Shown: positions 41,745 to 60,306 of the stretch, piece by piece
Numbering within the stretch: the first letter of the stretch is position 1
How the letters are laid out: each line of letters starts with the position of its first letter
Assembly: GCA_947085635.1 (NCBI GenBank)
Contig: CAMTXC010000006.1
Location: 11,564-75,563, forward strand
Length of the DNA stretch: 64,000 bases
Direction of reading: 5' to 3'
From: an uncultured Actinomycetes bacterium
Lineage (GTDB): Bacteria; Actinomycetota; Thermoleophilia; RBG-16-64-13
Made by a program: the position numbers and the translations under genes
The notes under the pieces: generated by a model
Database searches by the model: none
Told to the model about the DNA's origin: nothing
The model's input: the letters and a program-made list of their open reading frames with translations, nothing else

Positions 41745-41761
41745 CACTACATCGTGTAGTA
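41745..41761. promoter_or_regulatory. Operator-like inverted repeat CACTAC-N5-GTAGTA
   Basis: One mismatch to the TACTAC-N5-GTAGTA motif seen at three other promoters. Lies 67 nt upstream of the TPR gene. Confidence 0.45.
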
Positions 41762-44760: not shown

Positions 44761-44800
44761 TACTATGAGACGTAGTTGATTCCTACTACACTGCGTAGTA
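44761..44800. promoter_or_regulatory. Two adjacent operator-like repeats: TACTAT-N5-GTAGTT and TACTAC-N5-GTAGTA
   Basis: Positions 44761-44777 and 44784-44800, about 100 nt upstream of paralog 2. Confidence 0.5.
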
Positions 44801-44900
44801 TGATGCCGCAGAAGTAAGCGCCGGCGTTCACAAGCTTGGTGGTTGGCGGATCCATATGCCGGCGTACGGACCGTATACCAGCGGCACGAGGGGATCTAGC

Positions 44901-45857: not shown

Positions 45858-45893
45858 TCAGGTGCGTGCACGCGACCTCGACGGGCTGCCGGC

Positions 45894-46478: not shown

Positions 46479-46543
46479 GATATGGACGGCGTGAAACGTA
46501 AACTGCGAGATGCGGTGGTCGTCGAGCGAAGGAGCGGGTCGCG

Positions 46544-47005: not shown

Positions 47006-47081
47006 GCACTCCATCTCTCATTCCCGCTGTGCCTCACGAGATCACCGGCCGGTCGTTGTCGTTCCCGGAAGGGGTAGTCGC

Positions 47082-47504
47082 ATGGAGTCAAAGAAGCTGA
47101 AGTTTCTGGTGGGCGGTGTTGTGATCATAGGAGCGATCGCTACGCTGGCCTTCTTCGCGGTCCGCGAGAACATGGTGTACTACTACACGGTCACGGAGAT
47201 GCTCGACAAGGGCCGGTCGGCGAACGTGCGCGTGGCGGGCGACTTGGTCAGCGGAACCCTTGTCAAGGGCGGAGTGGGCGAGCCCATCGAGTTCGAGATC
47301 TACGACAAGGAAGCCACGGAGAACACGCTGTTCATCAAGTACACGGGCGCTGTGCCCGACACGTTCGTGGACGATCCGAACCAGCCGGTGGAGGTCGTCG
47401 TAGAAGGGGACTATCTTTCGGACGGTACCTTCGCTGCAGACTTCCTCATGGCGAAGTGCCCGAGCAAGTACGAGAGTGCGGAGAGCGCGGCCGCGGGGAA
47501 GTAA
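47082..47504 (+). CDS. ccmE: CcmE heme chaperone paralog 2 (CxxxY variant, KCPSKY)
   Basis: N-terminal TM helix, VRVAGDLV core, C-P-S-K-Y motif. Confidence 0.8.
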   Translation: MESKKLKFLVGGVVIIGAIATLAFFAVRENMVYYYTVTEMLDKGRSANVRVAGDLVSGTLVKGGVGEPIEFEIYDKEATENTLFIKYTGAVPDTFVDDPNQPVEVVVEGDYLSDGTFAADFLMAKCPSKYESAESAAAGK

Positions 47505-47629
47505 CCGGTCGGACGGGTGCGCCTCGACCATGGGGGCGCATCGTATTCTCGGGACGATGGACAAGTGGAGTCGCTGGCTGACGCCGTCGTACGTCGACGG
47601 CACATGAAAGGCACGGAGGATCAACCTAT

Positions 47630-49633
47630 ATGAATCAGATCGGCTATTCGGCGCTGTTGCTGGCGGTTCTCACCTCGGCCTTCGGGTTGATCGCGCCGCT
47701 GGTCGCGGTGCGCACCGGGAGTCGGGGTTGGTTGAAGAGCGCCGAAAGGAGCGTGTACGGACTGTGCGCGGTCTCGTTGGTCGCGTCGGCCGCGCTCGTA
47801 TACGCGCTCATGACGCGTGACTACACGAACGAGTACGTCTATAACTACACGTCGAACGAGCTCTCGTGGTTCTACACCCTCTCGGCCTTCTGGGCCGGGA
47901 ACTCCGGTTCGATGCTGCTGTGGCTGGTGATTCTCGCCGTCTTCGCGGCTGTGGTCGTATGGCAGAACCAGGCCAAGAACAGGGAGATCCTGCCGTACGT
48001 GATCTCGATCCTGATGTCCATCGCACTCTTCTTCTCCCTCATGATGACGGCTTCCCGGGGGTCGAACCCCTTCGCGATGGTGCCTGCGGGCGTCTTCCCG
48101 GCCAACGGTTCGGGCCTGAACCCCATGCTGGAGAACCCGGGTATGGTGGCGCACCCCATCACCCTCTTCCTGGGCTATGTGGGCTTCGCGGTTCCATACG
48201 CCTTCGCGATGGCCGCTCTTATTACAAGGAGGCTCGGCGACTTCTGGATCCGCTCTACGCGACGCTGGACCGTCTTCGCCTGGATATTCCTTACGATCGG
48301 CAACATCGTGGGCGCGTGGTGGGCTTACGTGACGCTCGGCTGGGGCGGATACTGGGCGTGGGATCCCGTGGAGAACGCCTCCTTCATGCCGTGGGTCACC
48401 GGCACAGCCTTCCTTCACTCTGTGATGATCCAGGAGAAGAAGGACATGCTGAAGGTGTGGAACATCGTGCTCATAGTGCTCACCTTCTCGCTGACCATCT
48501 TCGGCACGTTCCTCGTCAGGTCAGGCGTCGTAAGCTCGGTTCACAGCTTCGGCCAGAGCAGCCTGGGTTTCTTCTTCCTGGGCTTCCTGGGGCTGATTCT
48601 CGTGTTCTCGCTGAACCTGCTGTTTAGCCGCCTCGACATGCTCAAATCTCGCAACGAGTTGGATAGTTTCGTGTCGCGTGAATCGAGCTTCCTGCTCAAC
48701 AACCTGCTCCTAGTGGGCATAGCGATGACCGTGCTTTGGGGCGTGCTCTTCCCGATCATCAGCGAAGCCGTCACCGGCAACAAGGTGACGGTGGGCCCTC
48801 CGTTCTTCGATCAGGTGATCGCGCCCATCGGCTTGGTTCTCATGTTCGTTACCGGCATATGCCCCCTGATCGCCTGGCGCCGCGCAACCTTGGCCAACCT
48901 CCGCAAGAACCTCATGGTCCCCGGTGTCACGGCGATCGTGGTCCTGGTGGCCCTCATCGCGACAGGGATGCGCCACACGTACGCGATCATCAGCTTCACT
49001 CTCTGCGCCTTCGTGGTTACCACCGTGCTCATGGAGTTCGCCCGCGGTGCGTGGGTGCGGCGGGAGATGTCGGGGGAGAACCTCGCCAAGGCGCTCGTGT
49101 CGCTCACGTGGCGCAACAAACGGCGTTACGGCGGCTACATCGTGCACATCGGGGTCATCTTGTTTCTTTTCGGAGTCACCGGCTCGTATGCGTTCAAACA
49201 GCAGGAATCGCGCACGATCACCAAGGGTGAGTCCATCTCGGTGGGAGGGTACGAGGTTACTTACGATAGCTTCGACTCGTACGACACCACCGAGAAGCGT
49301 GTGGGTACCGTCACGTTCACGGTGGCCGAGAACGGGCGGTTCCTTGGGACAGTGGCTCCGCGCAAGGAGTATTACTTCGCGAAGGATCAGCCGTGGACGC
49401 GGATCGACCGCAACGTCACTCTGACGCGCGACGTGTACGTGTCCCTACTCGACTACTCGGCCGAGACCGGCGAGGCCAACGTCGAGGTTCGCATCAATCC
49501 TCTGGTGAGCTGGTTGTGGATCGGGGGGATCGTGATGGTGCTTGGCGGTATTGTCGCCATTTGGCCTGACAAGCGCGACGCCCAACGTCTGGCGGCTCGC
49601 TATGAAAGACAAGTGAGGCTCCATGAGATCTAA
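47630..49633 (+). CDS. ccmF: Cytochrome c-type biogenesis protein CcmF (heme lyase)
   Basis: WGGYWAWDPVEN WWD motif and about 15 TM helices. Confidence 0.9.
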   Translation: MNQIGYSALLLAVLTSAFGLIAPLVAVRTGSRGWLKSAERSVYGLCAVSLVASAALVYALMTRDYTNEYVYNYTSNELSWFYTLSAFWAGNSGSMLLWLVILAVFAAVVVWQNQAKNREILPYVISILMSIALFFSLMMTASRGSNPFAMVPAGVFPANGSGLNPMLENPGMVAHPITLFLGYVGFAVPYAFAMAALITRRLGDFWIRSTRRWTVFAWIFLTIGNIVGAWWAYVTLGWGGYWAWDPVENASFMPWVTGTAFLHSVMIQEKKDMLKVWNIVLIVLTFSLTIFGTFLVRSGVVSSVHSFGQSSLGFFFLGFLGLILVFSLNLLFSRLDMLKSRNELDSFVSRESSFLLNNLLLVGIAMTVLWGVLFPIISEAVTGNKVTVGPPFFDQVIAPIGLVLMFVTGICPLIAWRRATLANLRKNLMVPGVTAIVVLVALIATGMRHTYAIISFTLCAFVVTTVLMEFARGAWVRREMSGENLAKALVSLTWRNKRRYGGYIVHIGVILFLFGVTGSYAFKQQESRTITKGESISVGGYEVTYDSFDSYDTTEKRVGTVTFTVAENGRFLGTVAPRKEYYFAKDQPWTRIDRNVTLTRDVYVSLLDYSAETGEANVEVRINPLVSWLWIGGIVMVLGGIVAIWPDKRDAQRLAARYERQVRLHEI

Positions 49634-50192
49634 CATGCATGCCGGGCGCCGAATGGTTCGCGCCACAGCCAAGGTGGCTACTGCCAAGGTAGCCGCACGG
49701 CCGGCGTTCGCCCGGCTCACAGCGCTGCTGGGGGCCGTAGTCATCGCCGTCGCCGCGTTACTGTTCATCGCAGCGCCCGCCTTTGCAGTACCGCCGGTAT
49801 CGAGTGTGGCCGACCAGCTCATCTGCCAGTGTGGGTGCGCCGCGGTGCTCACTGATTGCCCACACCAGGAGTGCGGCTGGGGTATCCCGGCCAAGCAGTA
49901 CATCGGCCAGCAGCTGGAGGCCGGCCGGTCGCCGGAGGCCCTCGTGCAATACTACGTGGAGGAATACGGCGAACAGGTGCTCGCCGCTCCCACGAAGCGG
50001 GGCTTCAACATGGTGGCGTGGGTGGCACCCTTCGCCGCGCTCATCATCGGAGCCGTGGCCGTGTACTTCCTAATCGGTATGTGGGCGCGGCGTAACGGCT
50101 CAGATGTGGAGGAGGTGCCGTTTCGTGAGGTCGGCCTCGCTCCTGAAGATCTGGAACGCAGGCTCGATAATGAGCTGCGGGAGTTCGATTGA
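49623..50192 (+). CDS. ccmH: CcmH/NrfF-like protein, Cys-rich variant
   Basis: Signal peptide, LICQCGCAAVLTDCPHQEC, C-terminal TM helix. Overlaps the end of ccmF. Confidence 0.65.
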   Translation: MRSNMHAGRRMVRATAKVATAKVAARPAFARLTALLGAVVIAVAALLFIAAPAFAVPPVSSVADQLICQCGCAAVLTDCPHQECGWGIPAKQYIGQQLEAGRSPEALVQYYVEEYGEQVLAAPTKRGFNMVAWVAPFAALIIGAVAVYFLIGMWARRNGSDVEEVPFREVGLAPEDLERRLDNELREFD

Positions 50193-50253
50193 GCGGCGGC
50201 CTGTGTGTCCGGTGCGTTAGGCGGGTCGCGTCGATTGTCGGCAGCGCGAAGGA

Positions 50254-50874
50254 GTGATGCTGAAGGTGTTCGAGATGCTGATTCAGGTGATACTGGCTTT
50301 GTCGGTCGTGGCCTTCATCGGCTACCCGCTCCTCAGGGCCGCGCAGACGGGCGAGGCCGAAGCACAGCCACTCTCCGAGGAGTTGGAGGACCTTCTCAGC
50401 AAGAAGGAGTCCACGTACTCCGCTTTGAAGGAACTCGAGTTCGATTTCAAGATGGGCAAGCTGTCCGAGAAAGACTACGTGGAGATCGACGCGCGCTATC
50501 GCGATGATGCCCTGGAGATACTCGGGGCGATTGAGGAGGCGGAGAAGGGATCACCCTCAGATGGTTCTGGCGCCCCTCGCCGCACCAAGAAAGCCCGACC
50601 ACAGGTGGAAAGCCGCCCACCGACGATCGCGAGGCCGAAGCCCGCGAAGGCGACCACCATCGGAAAGACGGCAGCGACTGTCACCTGCGCCGACTGCGGT
50701 CGCGAGAACCCGCCGGGTTCCCGCTTCTGCGCCTCGTGTGGTGTGGATCTCGAGGAGGCTTCGGCGAATGCAGACGCGGGCGGCTCCGACGAGCTCGTCT
50801 GCGACGAGTGCGGGCGTGACGTGGCAGCCGATCACCGGTTCTGCGCCGGCTGTGGCGCGGAGGTGGAGGCCTGA
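50254..50874 (+). CDS. CcmI-like N-terminal TM segment fused to a coiled-coil region and a double zinc ribbon
   Basis: ILALSVVAFIGYPLLR resembles the CcmI N-terminus. The C-terminus has CADCG..RFCASCG and CDECG..RFCAGCG. Confidence 0.6.
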   Translation: MMLKVFEMLIQVILALSVVAFIGYPLLRAAQTGEAEAQPLSEELEDLLSKKESTYSALKELEFDFKMGKLSEKDYVEIDARYRDDALEILGAIEEAEKGSPSDGSGAPRRTKKARPQVESRPPTIARPKPAKATTIGKTAATVTCADCGRENPPGSRFCASCGVDLEEASANADAGGSDELVCDECGRDVAADHRFCAGCGAEVEA

Positions 50875-50942
50875 GATCACCGGTCGTCGAGGAGACGGGT
50901 GGGGACCGGGCCATCCTGGGCGGCACGTCCGGGGGCCGGGAC

Positions 50943-51662
50943 TTGGCCATTCGCGTGAAGGGTCTGTGGAAGTACTTCGATCACTTCCCGGCGATCCGCG
51001 GGCTCGACGTGGAGTTGGAGCTCGGGCGGTTCCTCACGGTGTTCGGACCCAACGGGGCCGGCAAGACCACCCTCATCAAGGTGCTCTCCACCCAGATCGG
51101 GCCGTCGCAGGGCCAGGTCGAGGTGGGGGGGTGCGTGCTTCCCGGTCAGGCGGACCGCCTGCGCCGGCGTGTGGGAGTGATCTCGCACAACACCTACCTC
51201 TACCCGAACTTGACGGCGCGGGAGAACCTGACGTTCTTCGGGCGCATGTACCGGGTGCCCGATCTCGAGGAACGCATCAAGATGCTCCTGGAAGAGGTCG
51301 GCCTGAGCGGCCGCCGCGACGACCTCGTGCGCACCTACTCGAGGGGCATGCAACAGCGGCTCTCCATCGCGAGGGCGCTTCTGCACGACCCCGATATCAT
51401 GTTCCTCGATGAGCCCTACACGGGGCTCGACCAGCATGCCTCGAGGATGTTGCGCGACGTTCTGAAGACGCTCCATACCGGCGAACGCACACTCGTGATG
51501 ACTACCCACAACATCGAGCAGGGTCTCGAGATGTGCGACGAGGTGGCCATCCAGGTGCGGGGGCGCCTTGTCTTCAGAGAGAACGTGGCCGCCATCGACA
51601 GGGCGGCCTTCGAACAGACCTATTTCGATCACGTGGGCAAGGACTTCCGTTGGGATTCCTGA
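50943..51662 (+). CDS. ccmA: Heme exporter ABC ATPase CcmA
   Basis: Walker A (GPNGAGKT), signature YSRGMQQR, Walker B (MFLDEP). Start is uncertain (TTG 50943 or GTG 50955). Confidence 0.85.
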   Translation: MAIRVKGLWKYFDHFPAIRGLDVELELGRFLTVFGPNGAGKTTLIKVLSTQIGPSQGQVEVGGCVLPGQADRLRRRVGVISHNTYLYPNLTARENLTFFGRMYRVPDLEERIKMLLEEVGLSGRRDDLVRTYSRGMQQRLSIARALLHDPDIMFLDEPYTGLDQHASRMLRDVLKTLHTGERTLVMTTHNIEQGLEMCDEVAIQVRGRLVFRENVAAIDRAAFEQTYFDHVGKDFRWDS

Positions 51663-52327
51663 GCCAAGCCTGGATCATCGCCCGCAAGGACATCATCGGG
51701 GAGCTCCGCACTCGGGAGACGATCCTCTCCATGCTGCTCTTCGGCTTCCTGGTGATCCTGATCTTCAACTTCGGCATCGAGCCGGGGCTGCGGGAAGAGA
51801 ACCTCGTGAAACCCGGTGTGCTCTGGGCGGCGTTCACCTTTGCCGGCATCCTCGGCCTCAACCGAAGCTTCATAGCCGAGAAAGAGAACGACTGCCTGCA
51901 GGGCCTGCTGCTCTGCCCGGTGGACCGCTCAGTCATCTACCTCGGCAAGTTCTTCGGGAACTTCATCTTCACCCTGAGCATGGGCCTGGTGGTGTTCCTG
52001 TTTTTCTCGGTGCTTTACAACGTGAACCTGGCGCAGGTGGCACTGCCTCTAGGCGCCATCCTCGTGCTCGCGACCATCGGCTTCGCCGCGGTCGGCACGC
52101 TATTCGCGGCGGTATCGGTGGGCCTGAAGACGCGCGACGTGATCCTCTCGATCCTCCTCTTCCCGGTGATGGTGCCCGTGGTGCTCGCCGCCGCGAAGTC
52201 GTCGGGGCGGGTGCTCGACGGCGTTCCGCTGGCCGGCGCCGGTCTGTGGCTCGCCTTGCTGGTGGTCTATGATGTGATATTCCTGACGGTGTCCATCATG
52301 CTGTTCGACTATGCGGTGGAAGAATGA
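51650..52327 (+). CDS. ccmB: Heme exporter membrane protein CcmB
   Basis: Six TM helices with CcmB-like motifs (FNFG, LLCPV). TTG start overlaps the end of ccmA. Confidence 0.8.
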   Translation: MGFLSQAWIIARKDIIGELRTRETILSMLLFGFLVILIFNFGIEPGLREENLVKPGVLWAAFTFAGILGLNRSFIAEKENDCLQGLLLCPVDRSVIYLGKFFGNFIFTLSMGLVVFLFFSVLYNVNLAQVALPLGAILVLATIGFAAVGTLFAAVSVGLKTRDVILSILLFPVMVPVVLAAAKSSGRVLDGVPLAGAGLWLALLVVYDVIFLTVSIMLFDYAVEE

Positions 52328-53124
52328 TGACGACCGTGTCTGGAGGGATTACCGTGGAGCACGACACGCAGGCGGCCGTCGCGGGTGGAGGATCCTCCGG
52401 CGGCGGTGTGACCACTGCAACGACCCCCCCTCTGCCTGACTCGGGGCGCACCCTCTGGTTCGACATCCTGGGCGTGGCGGCCATTGTCTCGGTGCTCGTG
52501 GCGCTCTACGGCGCCATCGTCTGGGCCCCTACCGAGGCGGTCATGGGCCACGTGCAGCGCATCTTCTACTTCCACATGCCGAGCGCCTGGGTGGCGTTGG
52601 GGCCCGCGTTCACCATCGTCTTCATCTGCAGCATCGTGTACCTCGTGAAGAAAGACCTGCGCTACGACCGGATAGCGGGGGCTTCCGCGGAGCTGGGAGT
52701 GCTCTTCACCACGATCACTCTTCTCACCGGACCCCTGTGGGCCAAGCCCATTTGGGGCGCCTACTGGACCTGGGATCCGCGTCTCACCACCACGCTGGTC
52801 CTGTGGTTCATCTACGTGGCCTACCTCATGCTCCGGTCCTCTATCACCGAGGGACACAGGCGCGCCCGACTCTCGGCTGTGTTCGGCATCGTCGGGTGGA
52901 TCGACGTGCCGATCGTCTTCATGTCGATCCGGTGGTGGCGAACGATCCACCCCACCTTGGTCACCGGGGAAGGCATGAACCTCGACAGCTCGATGCAGGC
53001 CGTGCTCCTATTCTCCCTAGGCGCCATCACTCTCCTGTATGTGTTCCTTCTCGTCGTGCGGGTCCGTCAGCTTGACATGGGCTCGCGCATCGATCGTCTT
53101 CGTCAACAATTCCACCTGCGCTAG
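52324..53124 (+). CDS. ccmC: Heme exporter protein CcmC
   Basis: WGAYWTWDPRL WWD motif. ATGA overlap with ccmB. Confidence 0.9.
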   Translation: MMTTVSGGITVEHDTQAAVAGGGSSGGGVTTATTPPLPDSGRTLWFDILGVAAIVSVLVALYGAIVWAPTEAVMGHVQRIFYFHMPSAWVALGPAFTIVFICSIVYLVKKDLRYDRIAGASAELGVLFTTITLLTGPLWAKPIWGAYWTWDPRLTTTLVLWFIYVAYLMLRSSITEGHRRARLSAVFGIVGWIDVPIVFMSIRWWRTIHPTLVTGEGMNLDSSMQAVLLFSLGAITLLYVFLLVVRVRQLDMGSRIDRLRQQFHLR

Positions 53125-53135
53125 GAGTCTTCTGC

Positions 53136-53279
53136 ATGAGTGAGCTAGGTTTCCTGTTCGCCGGTTACGCCGTGGTGTGGGTCGCTCTCGGAGGGTACAT
53201 GCTCGCTGTCGGCCGTCGCCAGTCCACGCTGCGGCGTGAGATCGCCCGGCTCGAACAGGAGTTCAACAGCGGGGAGTGA
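53136..53279 (+). CDS. ccmD: CcmD-family small membrane protein (47 aa)
   Basis: Below the ORF-track cutoff. TAGGAG Shine-Dalgarno site, a single TM helix (FAGYAVVWVALGGYML), then a basic and coiled tail. Confidence 0.65.
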   Translation: MSELGFLFAGYAVVWVALGGYMLAVGRRQSTLRREIARLEQEFNSGE

Positions 53280-53348: not shown

Positions 53349-53365
53349 TACTACGACTGGTAGTA
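53349..53365. promoter_or_regulatory. Operator-like inverted repeat TACTAC-N5-GTAGTA (putative autoregulatory site)
   Basis: Perfect 6-5-6 inverted repeat 33 nt upstream of the BlaI-like gene. Confidence 0.55.
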
Positions 53366-53397: not shown

Positions 53398-53835
53398 ATG
53401 GACGGAGCGGTGAATCTCAACACGGGTCAAGAAGGTCTGCGTCAGGTACTCGGCGAGCTCGAGGCCGAGATCATGGAGCGCATGTGGGATCGCGGCTCTT
53501 CGTCGGTGCGCGATATCTACGAATGTCTCGCCGAGAGGCGTGAGATCGCATACACCACGGTCATGACGGTGATGGGCAGGCTGGCCGACAAGGGCCTGCT
53601 CAGCCGCAGGCAGCAGGGCCGGGCCTATCTGTACAGCCCATCGGAGACGCGTGGTTCGTTCTGCGCCGGAGTCGTGCGGAGTGTGGTGGAGGGTCTCTTC
53701 GGGGGCGCGAACCGCCCCGTGCTCGCCCACTTCGTGGAGCAGCTGTCGGAGGAGGACGGAGCCGATCTCGACATGCTTGCCGCCATCATCGATGAGAAGC
53801 GCCGGGAGCGGCGATCATCGACACCTTTGGCCTGA
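53398..53835 (+). CDS. BlaI/MecI/CopY-family winged-helix transcriptional repressor
   Basis: E.EIM..W, Y.TV.T...RL..KG motifs. ATG follows GGGGAGGAAGG. Confidence 0.85.
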   Translation: MDGAVNLNTGQEGLRQVLGELEAEIMERMWDRGSSSVRDIYECLAERREIAYTTVMTVMGRLADKGLLSRRQQGRAYLYSPSETRGSFCAGVVRSVVEGLFGGANRPVLAHFVEQLSEEDGADLDMLAAIIDEKRRERRSSTPLA

Positions 53836-53870
53836 CAGTCACCTACGCGCTCATCCTGGCCGGGCCTTGG

Positions 53871-54896
53871 TTGGTCCGCCGCTTTCTCGAGGGACGCGCG
53901 CGGCCGCGCACGCTGGCCTACACCTACCTCGCCACTCTTCTCGCCGCCGCGGGCGCTACGCTCGCCCTGCTCGTATCCCTCTTGCTGCGCTATCTGCCGC
54001 ACGGCCTGCTCACTCGGGCGGGACTGGCGTGCGACATGGAAGTAGCCTGTGCGTCGCCCCTACCGCCCTGGGCGGGCTCCACATTCTCCTTCCTCATCGG
54101 CGGAGTGATCGTGGGGCTTGTGCTGTTCGCCGGGGTCGCGATATATGGGCAGACTAGTTGCTCCACGCGTAGACGACTCGACGTGGTGAGTTCGGCGATG
54201 GAGTTCCCCTGTGCGGTCCCGTCGGGCCTGCGCGGGCGGGTGTACCTCGTCGACGACCCCGCGCCCGTCTCCTACACCATCGGCTTCTGGCGTCCTCAAG
54301 TCATCGTATCTTCGGGTCTCCTTGCCACCCTCGACGAGGACGAGCTCCGTGCGGCCCTCGCGCACGAGGAGGGCCACGTGGTCGCGGGTGACAACCTCAT
54401 GGTGCTCGTGGCGCGCACGCTTGCCCTGACCTTCGCTCTGGTGCCCGGCGTCGGCATGGCCTACGCCCGGTTGCGCAAGGCGCAGGAGCGGGCGGCCGAC
54501 GAGTTCGCCCGCGATCGCACCGGCGACGGCCTTCTGGTGGCCGCCAGTCTCACGAAGTTCGCACGTTCACTGCTCGCGCCGGCGCCTTCCCGGCGGGTCG
54601 AGATCGCGACCACGTCTTTCGCCGAAGAGGGAGATGTGAGCGAACGTGTCCGCGGCCTCCTCTCCAACAGCCGTGTCGCCACCTCGAAGCGCCGACTGGC
54701 AGCGGTAGCCCTCGCTTTCGTGGTGCTCGTGGCCACGTTCTCCGGCAGCGCCCTGGCGTTCACCGGCGTCACGTTGGCCTCTCGGTCCGACTGCTCGACG
54801 TGTCATGAGCTGCGGGTGGTGTCGGCCGGCGCTGCCACGATGCACGAGAACCCGAGCCTGCACGCGGAGTGCGTGGATACCTTCGTTCAGCACTGA
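53871..54896 (+). CDS. BlaR1-like M56/M48 zinc metalloprotease sensor with C-terminal CxxCH motif
   Basis: HEEGH motif, multiple TM helices, final TM helix followed by SDCSTCHE. Start is uncertain because the upstream in-frame sequence looks like another TM helix but has no canonical start codon. Confidence 0.75.
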   Translation: MVRRFLEGRARPRTLAYTYLATLLAAAGATLALLVSLLLRYLPHGLLTRAGLACDMEVACASPLPPWAGSTFSFLIGGVIVGLVLFAGVAIYGQTSCSTRRRLDVVSSAMEFPCAVPSGLRGRVYLVDDPAPVSYTIGFWRPQVIVSSGLLATLDEDELRAALAHEEGHVVAGDNLMVLVARTLALTFALVPGVGMAYARLRKAQERAADEFARDRTGDGLLVAASLTKFARSLLAPAPSRRVEIATTSFAEEGDVSERVRGLLSNSRVATSKRRLAAVALAFVVLVATFSGSALAFTGVTLASRSDCSTCHELRVVSAGAATMHENPSLHAECVDTFVQH

Positions 54897-54981: not shown

Positions 54982-54998
54982 TACTACGCTCTGTAGTA
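54982..54998. promoter_or_regulatory. Operator-like inverted repeat TACTAC-N5-GTAGTA
   Basis: Perfect repeat 44 nt upstream of the DUF2318 gene. Confidence 0.55.
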
Positions 54999-55041: not shown

Positions 55042-55674
55042 GTGTCGAAGAAACAGACGGCCCGGAAGGGCGATCTGAAGGCAAAGCGGGAGCGTTTCGA
55101 AGAGGCCGGGAAGTTCCCCGTGGGGAAGCTGATCGCGGTGAGTGTCATCGTGCTCGGGCTCGCGTTCGGCGGCTTCGCGGCGTACCAGTACTTCGTGGCA
55201 CCGCAGGCGGTGGGCGGCGCGACCGTGGACTCCGGCGTCTCGTATCCGGCGGGTCAGGTGCCCATGGTGCCGCTCGACGCGCAGCAGACCGCCGAAGGCC
55301 TTTCCTTCCCGGTGCAGGGTCTGAAGGACAACCTCATCGTGGGGCTCACGTACGAGCGCTCGCAACCCATGCCGGCCGGATACCAAGCCGCGACGGGTGG
55401 AAGCAGCCTGCCGCTTCTCAGCTACATCTCCCCGAAGGGGAACCTGGTGGTGGCGACTTCGTTCTGCGAACCGTGCCGCGGTGACAGCTTCCACATCGAC
55501 GGCAACGCCTTGGTGTGCGACGTCTGTTTCACTCGTTGGGACCTCGACACGCTTGAAGGCCTGTCGGGCGGGTGCATGGCGTATCCTCCTGAAGAAGTGG
55601 CCGCGGAACTAGTAGGCGACACCGTGTTCATCCCCAAAGCCGATCTCGAGGCGTGGGTGCCGAGGGCATTCTAG
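55042..55674 (+). CDS. DUF2318-like membrane-anchored Cys4 protein (FetA/Cj1660-like)
   Basis: N-terminal TM helix. C-terminal CEPC...CDVC...GGC pattern. Confidence 0.65.
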   Translation: MSKKQTARKGDLKAKRERFEEAGKFPVGKLIAVSVIVLGLAFGGFAAYQYFVAPQAVGGATVDSGVSYPAGQVPMVPLDAQQTAEGLSFPVQGLKDNLIVGLTYERSQPMPAGYQAATGGSSLPLLSYISPKGNLVVATSFCEPCRGDSFHIDGNALVCDVCFTRWDLDTLEGLSGGCMAYPPEEVAAELVGDTVFIPKADLEAWVPRAF

Positions 55675-55733
55675 GTGCTGGTCTTTCAAGAGTCGCGGGG
55701 TAGGCTGGGCCGCCTCAGAGTACGACGGCGGCC

Positions 55734-56891
55734 GTGAGGCTCTCCTCGATAGCGTTCCGCAACGTGCGGCGCCACCTCTGGCGGAGTGCGCTGGTGTTCG
55801 TGGTCATCGCCGCGTCGGTGGCGGTGGTCACCAGTCTCTACCTTGTGACCCGCAGCGCCGAGCGCGACCTGGAGAACAAGGTCGATGAGTACGGCGCCAA
55901 CATCGTCGTCGTGCCTCGCAGCGAGGAGTTGCCACTGTCGTACGGGGGCGTGCAGGTGGGCGGGCTCACCTACGACGTAGAGCCTCTGCACATGGACGAC
56001 ATCGCGGTCATCAGGGGCATCGAGGAAGGCGAGAACATCAATCTCGTGGCTCCGAAGCTCGTGGATTCGGCCGAGGTCGGGGGCGTGCGGGTGTTGACTG
56101 TGGGAGTCGACTGGGCCTCCGAGCTCAGTCTGAAGAGGTGGTGGACCGTCGTGGGGACGTCACCATCCGGCGCCGGTGACGTGCTTTTGGGCGACCGGGC
56201 GGCGCGGCACCTTGGCCTGGGTCCAGGCGATCCCGTCGAGTTGCGCGGGGAGCAGCTCACGGTCGTGGCCGTGTTGGAGCCCACCGGCACCCAGGAGGAC
56301 GACCTGCTCTTTCTCGACCTCGGCGTGGCTCAGCGTCTGTGGGATCGCCCCGACGAGGTGAGTTTCTTCGAGGTGGCCGCGTGGTGCGCGACCTGCCCGA
56401 TCGAAGTCATCAACGCTCAGATCTCGGCCGAGATGCCCTATGCCCGGGTGTCCGCCATCCTGAAGGCGGCGGAATCGCGAAGGATCCTCATCGGCCAGTT
56501 CCGTCTGTTCACGTTGGTACTCTCCGTGCTCATGGTCCTGGTGGGGTGCCTGATAGTTCTCGTATCGACCCTCTCGTCCGTACGGGCTCGTCGCGGCGAG
56601 ATCGGCATCTTCCGGTCGGTGGGTTACCGGCGGCAGCACATCTTCAAGATCATCCTGCTCGAGAACCTCGCGTTGGCCCTGTTTGGGGGGGTGGCGGGTC
56701 TGCTCGTGGCCGCGGTGGTGCACGCGCCCATGGCCCGGGCGGTCGCCCAGGTGCGCGACACGATGCCCCTTTCCCCCACCGACCTGGCCCTCGCTCTGCT
56801 CGCTTCTTTGCTCGTGGTGCTGGTGGCGAGCCTTTATCCGGCGGGTCGGGCCGCGGCTCTCAGCCCGACACTGGCCATGAAGAGGGTGTGA
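55734..56891 (+). CDS. FtsX/MacB-type ABC transporter permease 1
   Basis: TM1, large periplasmic domain, then three TM helices with the FtsX motif. Confidence 0.8.
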   Translation: MRLSSIAFRNVRRHLWRSALVFVVIAASVAVVTSLYLVTRSAERDLENKVDEYGANIVVVPRSEELPLSYGGVQVGGLTYDVEPLHMDDIAVIRGIEEGENINLVAPKLVDSAEVGGVRVLTVGVDWASELSLKRWWTVVGTSPSGAGDVLLGDRAARHLGLGPGDPVELRGEQLTVVAVLEPTGTQEDDLLFLDLGVAQRLWDRPDEVSFFEVAAWCATCPIEVINAQISAEMPYARVSAILKAAESRRILIGQFRLFTLVLSVLMVLVGCLIVLVSTLSSVRARRGEIGIFRSVGYRRQHIFKIILLENLALALFGGVAGLLVAAVVHAPMARAVAQVRDTMPLSPTDLALALLASLLVVLVASLYPAGRAAALSPTLAMKRV

Positions 56892-56895
56892 CGTC

Positions 56896-58053
56896 GTGGA
56901 GCTTCGGCACATCGCCCTCGGCAATCTTCGACGCCGGAAAGGCAAGGCGGCCCTCATCACCTTCGGACTCGCGGTGGCGGTGGCGGCTTTCGTGCTCGTG
57001 CTCTCGCTGATACTCTCTCTGCGCGCCACGATGGACGACAGGCTCTCTCGCTACGGCTCGAACCTCCTTGTGACTCCGCCGCGCACCGATCTCGACCTCT
57101 CCTACGGCGGCGTGAGTGTGTCTGGCGCAGGCAGCGGCGAGGTGCTCTATCTTGACGAGGTCGATCTGGCGGCCATCCAGGCACTCGGCGAAGCTGGGCG
57201 ATCGGCGGCCGTCATCCCTGTGAGGCTCGAACCCTTGAGTCTCGAGGGCCGGCCGGTCCTTGCCATGGGCACCGACCTCGCCGAGAGCGCGAAAGTGAAG
57301 CTCTGGTGGAGGGTCGAGGGTAGCCTTCCGGACTCCCCCGACGAGATCCTGCTCGGCCTCAATGTGAGGAACGAGTTCGGGTTGGACCGTGGCGACACGG
57401 TCGAGATGGGGGGGCGGCCGTTTACCGTGTCCGGTGTGTTGTGGGAGACGGGCGACGAAGAGGACAACCTGGTCATTGTGGGGCGGGAGGCCCTGACTTC
57501 ACTCACCGGCGAAGGCGGTCGCATCAACCTCATCGAAGTGACGGCGGCCTCCACCTCCGATGTCGAAGCGCTTGTCGCGGACATTGAGCGGGCGCTTCCC
57601 GATGCGGACGTCACCTCGGTCAAGCAGAGTATCGAGTTCAACAATCAGGCCGACTCCTCGTTGGCGCGCTTCGGCCTGGCGGTGATGCTTCTCATCGTGG
57701 TGATCTCAGGTCTTGTGGTCACGATCACCATGTTGACCGCGGTGCAGGAACGTCAGAAGGAGATCGGCATCTTCCGGGCGGTGGGTTTCAAGCAGCGCCA
57801 CATCGCCACGCTCATCGTCCTGGAATCGGCCATGCTGAGTTCTTCCGCGGCTGTGATCGGAGTCGTGGGGGGTCTGGGCGCCGCTTCGCTGGCGCCCCGC
57901 CTGGTGCGCGAGTCGGAGTTGGGTTTCCACTTCGATCCGCTCCTCATCGCGGCGGGTGTGGCGGTAGCGTTCCTCGTGGGGTTGTCGGCCGCGGTCTACC
58001 CGGCGTGGCGGGCCGCGCAGATGGATCCGGCGACGGCTTTGAAGTACGTGTGA
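56896..58053 (+). CDS. FtsX/MacB-type ABC transporter permease 2
   Basis: Same architecture as permease 1. KEIGIFRAVGF motif. Confidence 0.8.
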   Translation: MELRHIALGNLRRRKGKAALITFGLAVAVAAFVLVLSLILSLRATMDDRLSRYGSNLLVTPPRTDLDLSYGGVSVSGAGSGEVLYLDEVDLAAIQALGEAGRSAAVIPVRLEPLSLEGRPVLAMGTDLAESAKVKLWWRVEGSLPDSPDEILLGLNVRNEFGLDRGDTVEMGGRPFTVSGVLWETGDEEDNLVIVGREALTSLTGEGGRINLIEVTAASTSDVEALVADIERALPDADVTSVKQSIEFNNQADSSLARFGLAVMLLIVVISGLVVTITMLTAVQERQKEIGIFRAVGFKQRHIATLIVLESAMLSSSAAVIGVVGGLGAASLAPRLVRESELGFHFDPLLIAAGVAVAFLVGLSAAVYPAWRAAQMDPATALKYV

Positions 58054-58124
58054 TGAAGACGGCCGCGCGCACCCCGGGGTGACGCGCGGCTCCGAATGGA
58101 GACGAGAGCGACGGGAGTGGGAAC

Positions 58125-58823
58125 ATGGCCCTCATAGAAGTCGACGGCGTTCGGAAGGAGTACGGCGACGCCGAGTGCCGGGTGGTCGCCCTGCACGAGG
58201 TGTCTCTAGAGGTGGAGGCCGGCGAGTACGCGGCTATCATGGGCCCTTCGGGCTCGGGCAAGACCACGCTGCTCTCCATACTCGGCGCGATGAACCCACC
58301 CACGTCGGGCTCGCTGCGCATCGACGGCATCGACGTCTACGACCTCTCCCAGGAGCGCCAGGCCGACCTACGCCGGGAGTACATCGGCTTCGTCTTCCAG
58401 CAGCTCGAGCTTGTGCCCTACCTCAGCGCACTGGAGAACGTCATGCTGCCCCTCGCCATCTTGAAAGAGCGTGGGAAGAGACAGCGTGCTCTCGAAGCGC
58501 TCGCGCGGGTAGGTATCGACGAGCAGAAGGGGCGACGTCTTCCTTCAGAGCTCTCCGGAGGCGAGCAGGGGAGAGTGGCGATTGCCCGGGCCGTCGTGAA
58601 CGACCCACCCATCATCCTCGCGGACGAACCGGTGGGCAGTCTGGACACATCGACGGGGCGGCAGATCCTCGATCAGCTGCGGGCCCTGGCGGACGGCGGC
58701 CACGCGGTCGTCATGGTCACGCACAATCCGGACTCCACGGCTGATGTCGATCGGGTCATCCAGATCCTCGACGGGAGCGTATCTTGCGACGACGGTCCCA
58801 AGATCTGCGTGATCCCGAGCTGA
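58125..58823 (+). CDS. ABC transporter ATP-binding protein (MacB/LolD-type)
   Basis: [29 protein letters not shown]. Confidence 0.9.
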
Positions 58824-59045: not shown

Positions 59046-59587
59046 TGAGAAGACCGACCTCGCGCGTGGCCCTGGTGGCCGCGTTCGCTCTGCTGCTGGG
59101 ACTCATAGGGGTCCTCGGGTGCGGTGGGCAGGCGGTCACGAGTGGATCAGGCGTGGCCGCGGCGCCCGACTCGACCGATTCCCGCAAGCCGGCCCCCGCC
59201 TTCAGCGGCGTTACGATGGACGGCGCCGAGGTGTCTCTGGCCACGTTCGAAGGAAAGCCGCTCGCGCTCATCTTCTGGGCCACCTGGTGACCTTCTTGCA
59301 GGGCGGAGACGCCCGAACTCGATAGGTTCTATCGAGAGAACAAAGACGACATCGGGTTCCTCGTTATCGCGATCCAGGACGCTGAAGCCGATGTGCGGGC
59401 CTTCATGCAACAGGGCGGATACGACCTCCCCGTGCTCCTCGACCCGCCGGGCGCTATCGCCAACGCCTACCGGGTATCGGCGGTGCCTACGGCCGTCTTC
59501 ATCGATCCGGAGGGTAATATCGCGAGCATCAAGGTGGGTCAGACCACGGCCGCTCAACTCGAGGAGATCACCTCGGCGTTGCGATGA
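59045..59587 (+). CDS. TlpA/ResA-like thiol:disulfide oxidoreductase lipoprotein with selenocysteine (FWATW-U-PS-C) at TGA 59288-59290
   Basis: The ORF track splits it into 58784..59290 and 59393..59587, which are in the same frame. LGC lipobox. Any repeat ATG from 58955 to 59045 could be the start. Confidence 0.8.
59293..59317 (+). other. SECIS-like hairpin (upper stem GGGCG-GAGA-CGCCC at 59301-59314)
   Basis: The upper stem starts 10 nt after the UGA. A lower 3-bp stem forms across a 5-nt internal loop. Confidence 0.4.
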
Positions 59588-60306
59588 GCATCGAGCAGCT
59601 GAACCTGGCAGCCTTCGGACTAGCTCTGGTGGCCGGCGCCGCCAGCTTCCTCAGCCCGTGCGTTCTGCCCCTTCTGCCCGGCTATCTCTCGTTCGTGTCG
59701 GGGGTGTCGCTGGATCGCCTGCACGTGGACACCCGGCGCGTCTTCTTCGCCACCCTGGCCTTCGTGGCGGGGTTCTCGCTCGTGTTCACTCTCGCGGGAG
59801 CGGGCGCGGGGTTCGTGGGCGACATCCTGCTGGCGCACAGACGGACGCTGCAGATCGCATCCGGTGTGATGCTGGTGCTGCTGGGGGTGCTGGTCTCTGG
59901 CCTGCTCCCCCTGAGCGCGTTCCAGCGCGAGCGCCGGTTGTTGCCCTACCGAGTGCCCGGAGGATTGGTGGGGGCGGGGTTGGCGGGCGTGGCCTTCTCT
60001 ATCGGGTGGACGCCATGCGTCGGGCCCATCCTTGCCTCGATCCTGACTCTGGCCGCTTCAGGCCGGAGCCCCCTCGGCGGCGCAGCGCTGCTCGCGACCT
60101 ACTCGCTGGGGCTCGCCGTGCCGTTCGTGTTCTCCGGGCTGTTCTTCGCCCGAGCCATGGGCGCCTTCTCCTGGGTCAAACGTCACTTCGGCGTGATCAA
60201 GATGGCCTCGGGCGTCCTGCTCGTGGCCTACGGTCTGCTCATGATCGGCGGTCAGTTCACCTGGCTCACCGCACGGCTCGCGGGCTACCAGCTGTTCGAG
60301 TTCTAG
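59584..60306 (+). CDS. ccdA: CcdA/DsbD-family cytochrome c biogenesis thiol-reductant transporter
   Basis: FLSPCVLPLLPGY and TPCVGPIL motifs. ATGA overlap with the TlpA-like gene. Confidence 0.9.
   Translation: MSIEQLNLAAFGLALVAGAASFLSPCVLPLLPGYLSFVSGVSLDRLHVDTRRVFFATLAFVAGFSLVFTLAGAGAGFVGDILLAHRRTLQIASGVMLVLLGVLVSGLLPLSAFQRERRLLPYRVPGGLVGAGLAGVAFSIGWTPCVGPILASILTLAASGRSPLGGAALLATYSLGLAVPFVFSGLFFARAMGAFSWVKRHFGVIKMASGVLLVAYGLLMIGGQFTWLTARLAGYQLFEF

What the first reader, a model, noticed from the sequence alone, without database searches (positions are those of the whole stretch)
53871..54896. BlaR1-like protease sensor ends in an extracytoplasmic CxxCH heme-c attachment motif
The HEEGH metalloprotease has no penicillin-binding sensor domain. 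After its last TM helix (LAAVALAFVVLVATFSGSALAF) it carries a 45-aa tail that contains SDCSTCHE plus further His and Cys residues (MHENPSLHAECVDTFVQH). CxxCH is the covalent heme-attachment signature. The gene sits directly after the ccmABCD genes and before a CcdA/TlpA module. A c-heme or thiol/redox sensing tail on a BlaR1-type anti-repressor would be an undescribed signalling input. The annotated TTG start also looks too short, because the in-frame upstream sequence FGLTVTYALILAGPW resembles a missing TM helix but has no ATG, GTG or TTG.
Basis: inference. Interest (0 to 1): 0.65.

Follow-up and report, generated by a model that had tools for sequence, protein, structure and literature searches.

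The report
Cytochrome-maturation switch with CxxCH bait tail
A membrane protease of the antibiotic-sensing BlaR1 type has lost its penicillin sensor, carries a short outward-facing tail with a haem-attachment motif, and together with its repressor appears to control the whole gene cluster that attaches haem to cytochromes, which suggests a self-monitoring circuit not described before.

Summary
ORF 53871-54896 is an HEEGH M56/M48 metalloprotease with no penicillin-binding domain. Its 43-aa tail after the last TM helix contains CSTCH and is predicted to face outward.

- **Motif conservation:** CxxCH is kept in about 14 orthologous lineages (47-93% identity). About 7 lineages have single-Cys variants (SxxCH, TxxCH, CxxSH, CxxGH). 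The His and at least one Cys are always kept.
- **Wider family:** a loop Cys plus a tail Cys is the ancestral feature of a large short-tail M56 family. CxxCH occurs only in the clade embedded in ccm clusters.
- **Regulon:** a BlaI operator, TACTAC-N5-GTAGTA, overlaps the -10 element of four promoters. These drive a CcmI-like gene, ccmEEFH-ABCD, blaI-blaR, and a FetA-like/ABC/TlpA/CcdA operon.
- **Start codon:** The gene starts at a conserved AUC/AUA codon (53817), 8 nt after GGAG, giving 359 aa and four TM helices.

Best reading: a Cys/His bait whose redox or haem state gates BlaI cleavage. Covalent haem is plausible (about 0.3) but unproven. This is a new variant of a known kind.

The parts
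53817..54896 (+). Revised blaR-like M56/M48 metalloprotease gene: 359 aa, AUC start, overlapping the blaI 3' end by 19 nt. Predicted layout: TM1 3-24, TM2 36-59, outside loop 60-88, TM3 89-111, cytoplasmic protease 112-293, TM4 294-316, outside tail 317-359.
   Evidence: Pfam. AF2 model with mean pLDDT 71.6. Foldseek top hits are BlaR1 8EXS/8EXP. Topology and charge counts. Start-codon comparison.
53817..53819 (+). Proposed non-canonical start codon ATC. It is an invariant ATC/ATA in all relatives examined and lies 8 nt downstream of GGAG (53805-53808).
   Evidence: The distant homologs P0026 (GTG), P0032 and P0050 (ATG) start at the aligned position.
53871..53873 (+). TTG start codon chosen by ORF callers, probably internal (Leu19).
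   Evidence: It is TTG in only 5 of 16 lineages and CTG/CTC in 11. The upstream 54 nt show a coding substitution pattern.
54030..54050 (+). Extracytoplasmic loop cysteines: C54 and C60 in the 341-aa numbering, C72 and C78 in the 359-aa numbering.
   Evidence: C72 is conserved in 85/88 family representatives. C78 is conserved in the closer relatives only. Both are nearly invariant in orthologs.
54363..54377 (+). HEEGH zinc-binding motif. A downstream invariant Glu in QERAAD is the likely third ligand.
   Evidence: The His residues are invariant in 88/88. Invariant columns are listed.
54765..54893 (+). 43-aa extracytoplasmic Cys/His tail.
   Evidence: AF2 pLDDT is below 50, so the tail is predicted flexible.
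54792..54806 (+). C-S-T-C-H motif.
   Evidence: Read directly from the sequence. Conservation table.
53398..53835 (+). blaI: BlaI/MecI/CopY-family winged-helix repressor, 145 aa.
   Evidence: Penicillinase_R, E = 1e-29. NCBIfam CopY/BlaI hits fall below their cut-offs.
53349..53365 (.). BlaI operator TACTACGACTGGTAGTA overlapping the -10 element (TAGTAT) of the blaI-blaR promoter.
   Evidence: Exact palindrome. Conserved upstream of blaI in orthologs.
54982..54998 (.). BlaI operator TACTACGCTCTGTAGTA between blaR and the fetA-like gene.
   Evidence: It is also present in L122, a relative that is not in a ccm cluster.
44761..44800 (.). Tandem BlaI operators (44761-44777 with 2 mismatches, 44784-44800 exact) on a TTGATT-17-TATGAT promoter in front of the ccm operon.
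   Evidence: An operator occupies the same relative position in L001, L011, L012, L013 and L014.
41745..41761 (.). BlaI operator with one mismatch (CACTACATCGTGTAGTA) upstream of the TPR/CcmI-like gene.
41828..42514 (+). Membrane-anchored TPR protein, CcmI/CycH-like.
   Evidence: TPR_19, E = 5e-17. TPR_CcmH_CycH scores 36.5 bits, below its cut-off of 42.
44856..53279 (+). ccm operon: a 333-aa zinc-ribbon membrane protein, a 194-aa unknown, ccmE x2, ccmF, ccmH, a double-zinc-ribbon protein, ccmA, ccmB, ccmC, ccmD.
   Evidence: The order is conserved in all orthologous loci.
55042..58823 (+). FetA-like (PF10080) gene, two FtsX/MacB-type permeases and an ABC ATPase (FetABCD-like).
   Evidence: The C. 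jejuni FetABCDEF paper is PMC10783030.
59030..59587 (+). TlpA/ResA-like lipoprotein thiol-disulfide oxidoreductase with an in-frame TGA (59288-59290) at the first active-site Cys, a putative selenocysteine.
59584..60306 (+). ccdA (DsbD_TM), a transmembrane reductant conduit.

Best explanation
The gene encodes a 359-aa, four-TM, BlaR1-type (M56) zinc protease. With the adjacent BlaI repressor it forms a proteolytic switch for the whole System I cytochrome c maturation and thiol-reduction supercluster.

**Regulon (inferred from sequence)**
BlaI dimers would sit on TACTAC-N5-GTAGTA operators that overlap the -10 element of four promoters:
- the ccmI-like gene;
- ccmEEFH-ccmABCD;
- blaI-blaR;
- fetA-like/ABC/Sec-tlpA/ccdA.

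**Sensor input**
- The only extracytoplasmic parts of the sensor are a loop carrying Cys72 and Cys78 and the 43-aa C-terminal tail.
- Across the wider family the input is cysteine-based: a conserved loop Cys plus a conserved tail Cys.
- In the ccm-embedded clade the tail has been remodelled into an apocytochrome-like peptide, CxxCH...HxxC.

**Proposed mechanism (inference)**
- The tail acts as a bait for the machinery the switch regulates.
- Its state may be disulfide-bonded to the loop, reduced by TlpA/CcdA, or haem-ligated by CcmF/H.
- That state would be transmitted through TM4 to the cytoplasmic protease.
- The protease then cleaves BlaI (an AHF site is conserved) and de-represses the cluster when maturation or reducing capacity is insufficient.

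**Shown versus inferred**
- Shown: gene anatomy, conservation, operators, synteny.
- Inferred: topology, BlaI cleavage, the chemical state that is sensed, and the sign of the response.

The weak AUC/AUA start probably keeps the sensor sub-stoichiometric to BlaI.
For: **Family, fold and topology**
- M56/M48 domain with an adjacent BlaI gene.
- Foldseek best hits are BlaR1 cryo-EM structures.
- Positive-inside topology: 24 K+R in the protease domain against 2 in the tail.

**Operators**
- There are three exact operator copies and two near copies, all on the + strand and in intergenic promoter positions. Chance expectation is 0.16.
- The positions are conserved in orthologs.
- A 6-N5-6 inverted repeat is typical of BlaI repressors (PMC8457756).

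**Conservation**
- Synteny with ccm holds in every ortholog.
- Within the variable tail, only C308, C311, H312 and C334 are conserved.
- The loop Cys is present in 124/133 family representatives and a tail Cys in 109/133. Tail Cys frequency is twice the protein average.

**Link between motif and context**
- CxxCH or xxxCH with His is seen only in ccm-context members. A non-ccm relative (P0027/L122) has a lone Cys and no His.
- Distant BlaI-M56 loci carry CcdA nearby in 13/94 cases.

**Biochemical plausibility**
- System I attaches haem to minimal CXXCH peptides and to C-terminal 'haem tags' (PMC3884852, PMC6962350).
- Haem attachment and oxidation of apocytochrome are competing processes (PMC3420020 abstract).
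Against: - There is no experimental data of any kind. All members come from uncultured MAGs.
- About 7 of about 21 ccm-linked lineages lack one Cys of the motif. From my own knowledge, E. coli System I does not detectably attach haem to single-Cys variants (Allen et al. 2002, JBC).
- AF2 gives no structure for the tail or the loop.
- The sign of regulation is unknown, and whether the protease cleaves BlaI is unknown.
- The ancestral BlaI-M56-FetA module exists without ccm, so the primary signal may concern the Fet-like module rather than cytochrome maturation.
Confidence: 0.5

Rival explanations
1. A pure thiol-disulfide switch with no haem. The conserved loop Cys and tail Cys form or exchange a disulfide that reports the extracytoplasmic redox poise. 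CxxC plus the extra Cys only tune this, and the His modulates thiol pKa. Oxidation would activate the protease and induce the reductant pathway (CcdA, Sec-TlpA, Fet-like module) together with ccm.
For: - The loop-Cys/tail-Cys pair is conserved across a large family in which CxxCH is absent.
- Single-Cys variants persist in a full ccm context.
- CcdA/TlpA recur next to distant BlaI-M56 pairs.
- The operator-controlled Fet-like redox module is the ancestral partner.
Against: - The His at the end of the motif is invariant in all ccm-linked lineages, yet absent in the non-ccm relative. A disulfide switch does not require it.
- With a promiscuous System I present, an exposed reduced CxxCH would be expected to receive haem.
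Confidence: 0.28
2. A metal-binding tail. The C-x-x-C-H...H-x-x-C ligands bind Fe, Cu or Zn outside the cell, and metal occupancy gates the protease. This would fit the homology of the downstream module to the iron-uptake-associated FetABCDEF.
For: - The tail is rich in Cys and His, with two conserved His/Cys clusters.
- The FetA-like/ABC/thioredoxin module resembles the C. jejuni iron-linked cluster.
- The BlaI family includes the copper repressor CopY.
Against: - No metal transporter, chaperone, FetM/FetP, Sco or CopA gene is present in the regulon.
- The ligand set is not constant: L011 and L059 keep one Cys.
- BlaI lacks CopY's C-terminal Cys motif (sequence).
Confidence: 0.1
3. The tail is not the sensor. 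Its cysteines merely staple TM4 to the loop, and the signal is received through a partner: the co-regulated FetA-like protein or the FtsX-type ABC transporter. This would resemble the sensor-less kinase BceS, which relies on the BceAB transporter.
For: - The M56-FetA-like adjacency is conserved even in 36-40% identical relatives and outside ccm.
- Lineages with CxxSH or CxxGH tails have lost FetA and the permeases.
- The extracytoplasmic part is very small.
Against: - L011 and L059 keep BlaI, M56 and the operators without FetA and the permeases, so the switch works without them.
- Selection on His and on extra Cys in the tail is unexplained by a purely structural role.
Confidence: 0.12

Closest known systems
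BlaR1/BlaI and MecR1/MecI of Staphylococcus aureus and Bacillus licheniformis
   Same: - Four TM helices with a cytoplasmic HEXXH gluzincin domain between TM3 and TM4. The fold matches 8EXP/8EXS.
- An adjacent autoregulated BlaI-family repressor with inverted-repeat operators on promoters.
- The C-terminal input lies outside the membrane, after TM4.
   Different: - There is no ~250-aa penicillin-binding sensor domain. A 43-aa Cys/His tail takes its place.
- The regulon is cytochrome c maturation and thiol reduction, not a beta-lactamase or PBP2a.
- The start codon is AUC/AUA and overlaps blaI.
Sensor-less actinobacterial M56 proteases, e.g. Mycobacterium tuberculosis BlaR/BlaI (Rv1845c/Rv1846c; Sala et al. 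2009, own knowledge, cited)
   Same: A short M56 protein without a PBP domain, paired with BlaI, in Actinomycetota.
   Different: - The Mtb pair has no CxxCH tail and no ccm regulon.
- The signal for these proteins is unknown. The loop-Cys/tail-Cys pair seen here has not, to my knowledge, been pointed out.
Extracytoplasmic c-haem sensor domains: Geobacter GSU0582/GSU0935 PAS-like domains and Desulfovibrio DcrA (own knowledge); c-haem Cache domain (PMC12889525)
   Same: A CxxCH motif in the outward-facing input part of a signalling protein, matured by the cell's own cytochrome c machinery.
   Different: - Those are folded domains feeding chemoreceptors, kinases or cyclases.
- This is a short, probably disordered tail feeding a protease/repressor switch.
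- That switch regulates the maturation machinery itself.
Engineered C-terminal 'haem tag' and microperoxidase peptides matured by E. coli Ccm (Braun & Thony-Meyer 2004; Braun et al. 2005; cited in PMC3884852 and PMC6962350)
   Same: A flexible C-terminal CxxCH peptide exposed outside the membrane. System I needs little more than the motif.
   Different: Those are synthetic constructs. They show feasibility, not that this tail is haem-loaded.
Sentinel or bait sensors of envelope biogenesis machines, e.g. NlpE monitoring DsbA and Lol for Cpx, RcsF monitoring Bam (own knowledge)
   Same: A substrate-like element whose processing state reports the capacity of the machinery.
   Different: The proteins, the outputs (two-component or phosphorelay) and the lack of any haem or Ccm link all differ. 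The analogy is one of logic only.
Campylobacter jejuni FetMP-FetABCDEF cluster (PMC10783030)
   Same: The downstream operon has the same parts: a DUF2318/FtrD-like membrane protein, two FtsX-type permeases, an ATPase and a thioredoxin-like protein.
   Different: - There is no FetM or FetP.
- The FetA-like protein is short (210 aa).
- The module is embedded in a ccm cluster with CcdA and sits under a BlaI operator.

Membership tests
Peptidase M56 (BlaR1-type signal-transducing metalloprotease) | HEXXH zinc motif plus a downstream Glu ligand; Pfam PF05569 above its gathering score | tested here: met
   HEEGH is invariant in 88/88. E206 in QERAAD is invariant. PF05569 scores 34.5 bits against a cut-off of 31. 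The related PF01435 (M48) scores 47.2 bits.
Peptidase M56 (BlaR1-type signal-transducing metalloprotease) | Polytopic membrane topology: three N-terminal TM helices, a cytoplasmic protease domain, then TM4 | tested here: met
   This is a prediction only. With the AUC start, AF2 helices are 3-24, 30-59, 84-126 and 291-321. Foldseek best hits are BlaR1 8EXS/8EXP, probability 1.0, but TM-scores are only 0.38-0.42. TM1 is weakly hydrophobic and did not reach the 1.5 threshold of the hydropathy scan (mean Kyte-Doolittle value over a 19-residue window).
Peptidase M56 (BlaR1-type signal-transducing metalloprotease) | Genetic pairing with a BlaI/MecI-family repressor that has its own operator | tested here: met
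   blaI lies immediately upstream and overlaps by 19 nt. The palindromic operator is conserved.
BlaR1/MecR1 sensu stricto (beta-lactam sensor) | C-terminal extracellular penicillin-binding (class D beta-lactamase-like) sensor domain | tested here: not met
   There is no such Pfam or NCBIfam domain. Only 43 residues follow TM4.
BlaR1-type switch | Signal-dependent proteolysis of the repressor | not testable with these tools
   Only a conserved LAHFVE segment in BlaI is seen. It corresponds to the S. aureus N101-F102 cleavage region (own knowledge).
c-type cytochrome / haem c protein | CXXCH motif | tested here: met
   CSTCH is at 54792-54806.
c-type cytochrome / haem c protein | Motif located on the extracytoplasmic side, with a maturation system present | tested here: met
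   The predicted topology places the tail outside. A complete System I is adjacent, and an octahaem cytochrome lies in the window.
c-type cytochrome / haem c protein | Motif conserved among orthologs | tested here: inconclusive
   About 14 lineages have CxxCH. About 7 have SxxCH, TxxCH, CxxSH, CxxGH, CxxAH or CxxCxH. The His and at least one Cys are always kept.
c-type cytochrome / haem c protein | Covalently bound haem | not testable with these tools
   This needs haem staining, mass spectrometry or spectroscopy.
BlaI regulon | Inverted-repeat operator overlapping target promoters, including autoregulation | tested here: met
   TACTAC-N5-GTAGTA is found exactly at 44784, 53349 and 54982, with a 1-mismatch copy at 41745 and a 2-mismatch copy at 44761. 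Chance expectation is 0.16. The sites are conserved in orthologs. Binding was not tested.

The most novel reading that the evidence does not exclude
The tail is a genuine System I substrate. CcmF/H ligates haem covalently to CxxCH, with the conserved downstream His, or Cys, as the distal ligand. The apo versus holo state of this built-in 'mini-apocytochrome' would set BlaR protease activity. The cell would then measure the spare capacity of its own cytochrome c maturation line with a decoy substrate and adjust ccm, CcdA and Sec-TlpA expression accordingly. This would be the first dedicated regulator of a Ccm system and the first haem-c input to a BlaR1-type protease.
Probability: 0.3. Interest if true: 0.85.

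Novelty: new variant of a known kind. Interest (0 to 1): 0.6.

Why it matters
- **Signal for sensor-less M56 proteases.** BlaR1-type proteases without a penicillin sensor are very numerous: the profile search found 34,538 relatives at E<=1e-3. Their signals are unknown. This locus offers a concrete, testable input, extracytoplasmic Cys/His chemistry.
- **A defined regulon.** The output is a clear regulon: the complete cytochrome c maturation and thiol-reduction cluster.
- **Regulation of Ccm.** Dedicated regulation of Ccm systems has hardly been described. A decoy-substrate feedback sensor would be a new control principle for a cofactor-attachment pathway.
- **Annotation errors.** The locus exposes two systematic errors. 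One is an M56 start codon (AUC/AUA) missed in every database entry, which removes TM1. The other is a selenocysteine TlpA/CcmG split into two ORFs.
- **Caveat.** If the tail proves to be only a disulfide staple, the finding reduces to a new BlaI regulon in an uncultured lineage.

Tried and rejected
1. **Chance occurrence of CxxCH: rejected.** The expectation is about 0.006 per tail, and the motif is conserved against a variable background.
2. **TTG 53871 as the true start, with the upstream helix a relic: rejected.**
   - The 54 nt upstream evolve as coding sequence. Pairwise differences at codon positions 1/2/3 are 702/648/1063, and 522 differing codon pairs are synonymous.
   - The TTG is CTG/CTC in 11/16 lineages.
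3. **Programmed -1 frameshift fusing BlaI to the protease: rejected.**
   - No conserved slippery heptamer exists (window A-CCT-TTG, L001 A-CCG-CCG).
   - An SD-like GGAG sits at a fixed 8 nt from the invariant ATH codon.
4. **Invariance of the ATH codon imposed by the overlapping blaI frame: rejected.** The BlaI residues there vary (SS, SY, RS, NR).
5. **Pfam M56 model on the extended protein.** The match did not extend into TM1, so it is uninformative.
6. **Kyte-Doolittle scan.** It did not flag TM1 at threshold 1.5. TM1 rests on AF2, homology and the BlaR1 architecture.
7. **AF2.** It gave no confident structure for the tail or the loop, so no loop-tail contact could be assessed.
8. **Copper-sensor idea (CopY relation): set aside.** The regulon has no Cu genes, and BlaI lacks the CopY Cys motif.
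9. **Literature.** Searches for BlaR1 with CXXCH, haem, CcdA or ccm found nothing relevant.
10. **Correlation between tail motif and presence of FetA/ABC.** It is suggestive (L011 and L059 lost both) but broken by L118/L122, which have a single-Cys tail with FetA. It is not used as evidence.
11. **Ungapped alignment fold of the putative SECIS.** It gave only weak covariation.
12. **P0012/L005 and L014 as counter-examples: discounted.** Their contigs show many fragmented genes, probably from assembly errors.
Full report
**1. Observation**

ORF 53871-54896 (+, TTG, 341 aa) exists as described. It has these features:
- HEEGH at 54363-54377.
- A final hydrophobic helix, LAAVALAFVVLVATFSGSALAF.
- A 43-aa tail (54765-54893) containing CSTCH at 54792-54806, three further His and one further Cys.

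Pfam finds only Peptidase_M48 (47.2 bits) and Peptidase_M56 (34.5 bits, cut-off 31), with no penicillin-binding domain. NCBIfam has no model that captures the protein.

Neighbouring genes:

| Position relative to the ORF | Genes, in order |
|---|---|
| Upstream | two ccmE, ccmF, ccmH, a double-zinc-ribbon protein, ccmA, ccmB, ccmC, a 47-aa ccmD, then blaI (Penicillinase_R, 1e-29) |
| Downstream | a FetA/FtrD-like PF10080 protein, two FtsX/MacB-type permeases, an ABC ATPase, a TlpA/ResA-like oxidoreductase, ccdA |

So the CcdA/TlpA module does not follow directly.

CxxCH is rare in the window. Apart from an octahaem cytochrome (23829-25607) and one other ORF, this is the only instance. The expectation for a 43-aa stretch is about 0.006.

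**2. Orthologs and conservation of the tail**

- The protein search gave 13 orthologs at 55-93% identity.
- GTDB genomes gave 9 species-level loci, all Actinomycetota/Thermoleophilia MAGs.
- Metagenomes and representative clusters added more.

In the ortholog alignment the tail is otherwise variable. C308 is invariant, and C311, H312 and C334 are nearly invariant.

Motif counts among lineages shown to sit in a ccm cluster:

| Motif | Lineages |
|---|---|
| CxxCH (CSTCH, CSACH, CSSCH, CAACH, CEICH, CTACH, CSGCH, CGGCH; down to 47% identity) | about 14 |
| S-P-x-C-H | one clade (L012, L013, L056, L061) |
| THTCH | L120 |
| TAGCH | L121 |
| CALSH | L011 |
| CGAGH | L059 |

Two further relatives show CSAAH and CSACTH, but their ccm context is not established.

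The His and at least one Cys are always present. A second cluster, H-x-x-C, follows 12-20 residues later in most members. Two apparent exceptions (L005/P0012 and L014) come from contigs full of broken genes and are not interpretable.

**3. Topology**

- The protease domain carries 24 Lys+Arg. It is flanked by CSTRRR after TM3 and SKRR before TM4.
- The tail has 2 Lys+Arg and 5 Asp+Glu.
- An AlphaFold2 model (mean pLDDT 71.6) gives helices at 3-24, 30-59, 84-126 and 291-321. The 69-82 loop and the tail 318-359 have low confidence.
- Its best structural matches in the PDB are the S. aureus BlaR1 cryo-EM structures: 8EXS and 8EXP, probability 1.0, E about 5e-3, TM-score 0.38-0.42.
- In BlaR1 the segment after TM4 is the extracellular sensor.

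The tail is therefore predicted to be outside, where the Ccm and TlpA active sites are. This is a prediction, not a measurement.

**4. The start codon**

- The 54 nt upstream of the TTG encode IDTFGLTVTYALILAGPW in frame. This segment is conserved as a hydrophobic helix in all 16 lineages compared.
- It shows a coding substitution pattern. Pairwise differences at codon positions 1/2/3 are 702/648/1063, and 522 differing codon pairs are synonymous.
- The annotated TTG is CTG or CTC in 11 of 16 lineages.
- No ATG, GTG or TTG precedes the helix in 14 of 18 loci. In the other four the only in-frame canonical codon is a TTG inside the helix.
- Every locus instead has an ATC (14 of 16) or ATA codon at the same position, about 8 nt downstream of a GGAG core.
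- The overlapping BlaI residues at that point vary, so blaI does not impose the invariance.
- More distant homologs start at the aligned position with GTG (P0026) or ATG (P0032, P0050).

I conclude that the gene starts at 53817 (AUC), overlaps blaI by 19 nt and encodes 359 aa with the three-plus-one TM architecture of BlaR1. A -1 frameshift fusion with BlaI was considered and rejected, because there is no conserved slippery site. A weak start probably keeps the sensor scarce relative to BlaI (inference).

**5. The regulon**

- Upstream of blaI all but one of the 13 orthologous loci compared (L009) share CTACTAC-N5-G(G/A)TAGTAT, a 6-N5-6 palindrome whose right half contains a TAGTAT -10 element.
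- Searching TACTAC-N5-GTAGTA in the window gives three exact hits: 44784, 53349 and 54982. There is a one-mismatch hit at 41745 and an adjacent two-mismatch hit at 44761.
- Nine hits with at most 2 mismatches were found, against 0.16 expected.
- The five sites named here (three exact, two near) are intergenic and on the coding strand. They lie before the TPR/CcmI-like gene, before the ccm operon (on a TTGATT-17-TATGAT promoter), before blaI, and between blaR and the fetA-like gene.
- A terminator-like hairpin follows ccmD.
- The same sites recur at the same relative positions in the orthologous loci.
- The 6-N5-6 inverted-repeat architecture matches BlaI operators determined in Clostridium thermocellum (PMC8457756).

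The BlaI/BlaR pair is thus predicted to control about 19 kb of cytochrome c maturation and thiol-reduction genes. I found no paper describing such a circuit.

**6. The wider family**

- A profile search of 1.84 billion representatives found 34,538 relatives, of which 27 have E<=1e-30.
- Among 133 full-length representatives, 124 have a Cys in the TM2-TM3 loop and 109 have a Cys in the last 40 residues. Cys frequency there is twice the protein average.
- Only one additional cluster (P0022) has CxxCH.
- In an alignment of 88 of these proteins, the loop Cys (C72) is present in 85 and the Cys aligned with C329 in 75.
- Relatives at 36-40% identity keep the arrangement blaI-M56-operator-FetA-like-FtsX.
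- One of these relatives (P0027/L122) is not in a ccm cluster. Its tail has a lone Cys without His.
- Among 94 distant BlaI-M56 loci, 13 (about 9 distinct) have a CcdA homolog within a few kb.

The ancestral unit therefore looks like a cysteine-based extracytoplasmic sensor controlling a Fet-like redox module. CxxCH or xxxCH-with-His is an elaboration seen only where the unit sits inside a ccm cluster.

**7. Mechanism**

Best explanation (confidence about 0.5): the loop and tail cysteines form the input of a BlaR-type protease. In this clade the tail mimics an apocytochrome. Its state (oxidised, reduced or haem-loaded) depends on the very machinery under BlaI control, which closes a feedback loop.

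Plausibility of haem loading:
- System I accepts minimal CXXCH peptides and C-terminal haem tags (PMC3884852, PMC6962350).
- Oxidation and haem attachment compete (PMC3420020).
- Against this stand the single-Cys lineages and the absence of any experiment.

Rivals:
- A disulfide switch without haem (0.28).
- A metal site (0.10).
- A structural staple, with sensing through FetA or the ABC transporter (0.12).

**8. Comparison and novelty**

- It is a member of peptidase family M56 and works like BlaR1/BlaI.
- It fails the defining sensor-domain test for BlaR1/MecR1 proper.
- It resembles sensor-less actinobacterial BlaR proteins. It differs in its tail, its regulon and its start codon.
- Haem-c sensor domains exist in chemoreceptors and Cache proteins (PMC12889525), but not in protease switches.

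I rate it a new variant of a known kind, with interest 0.6. The decoy-substrate reading has probability about 0.3 and would deserve about 0.85.

Noticed in passing
window 59030-59587 (TGA at 59288-59290): The TlpA/ResA-like lipoprotein gene is split into two ORFs by an in-frame TGA exactly at the first Cys of the WCxxC active site (FWATW-TGA-PSC). The same TGA is present in all 11 orthologs examined. It is followed by two hairpins (59301-59314 and 59318-59337). The second hairpin is almost invariant at the nucleotide level, including rare AGG/CGA codons. This is probably a selenocysteine CcmG/ResA-type reductase (UxxC) that gene callers miss.
   Followed up: partly
window 58941-59050: A 15-nt tandem repeat, 7.3 copies at 98% identity, lies just upstream of the TlpA-like lipobox. 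Each unit carries an SD-like GAGAGGAAGG followed by ATG, in frame. This gives up to eight alternative SD-ATG starts and an (MRGRP)n N-terminal extension. The close relative L006 seems to have fewer copies.
   Followed up: partly
window 46544-47005 and 47082-47504: There are two tandem CcmE paralogs. Both have Cys where the haem-binding His normally sits (KCPDKL and KCPSKY). This is the CXXXY-type variant known from Desulfovibrio and archaea (PMC3884852). The tandem pair is conserved in all orthologous loci.
   Followed up: partly
window 55042-58823; loci L117, L118, L121, L122: A FetABCD-like module is placed under a BlaI operator. It comprises a short DUF2318/FtrD-like protein, two FtsX/MacB permeases and an ATPase, without FetM/FetP. 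The blaI-M56-operator-FetA arrangement also exists outside ccm clusters (L122), so it looks like an ancestral regulatory unit of unknown function.
   Followed up: partly
protein family (P0020-P0168); loci L015-L116: Short-tail M56 proteases share a conserved Cys in the TM2-TM3 loop (124/133) and a Cys near the C-terminus (109/133). About 10% of distant BlaI-M56 loci have a CcdA gene within a few kb. This suggests a widespread, undescribed thiol-based input for 'sensor-less' BlaR-like proteins.
   Followed up: partly
window 43539-44693, 44856-45857, 50254-50874 (and a 41-aa ORF after ccdA in L001/L004): Several membrane proteins with C-terminal cytoplasmic zinc ribbons are conserved inside the ccm cluster. 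They include two paralogs flanking the tandem operator. No family match was found beyond the zinc ribbon, and their function is unknown.
   Followed up: no
window 21740-27891: An alternative-complex-III-like cluster is present: NrfD/ActC-like, ActD, an octahaem cytochrome c (8 CxxCH, 23829-25607) and a molybdopterin oxidoreductase. This shows the organism has real Ccm clients. No BlaI operator was found there.
   Followed up: partly
window 53280-53298: A terminator-like hairpin lies right after ccmD and before the blaI promoter and operator. This marks an operon boundary inside what looks like one long co-directional cluster.
   Followed up: no
loci L011, L059, L013, L056: Lineages with degenerate tail motifs have lost parts of the downstream module. 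L011 (CxxSH) lacks FetA, both permeases and the ATPase. L059 (CxxGH) lacks FetA and the permeases. L013 and L056 (SxxCH) lack FetA. There are too few events to call this a correlation.
   Followed up: partly
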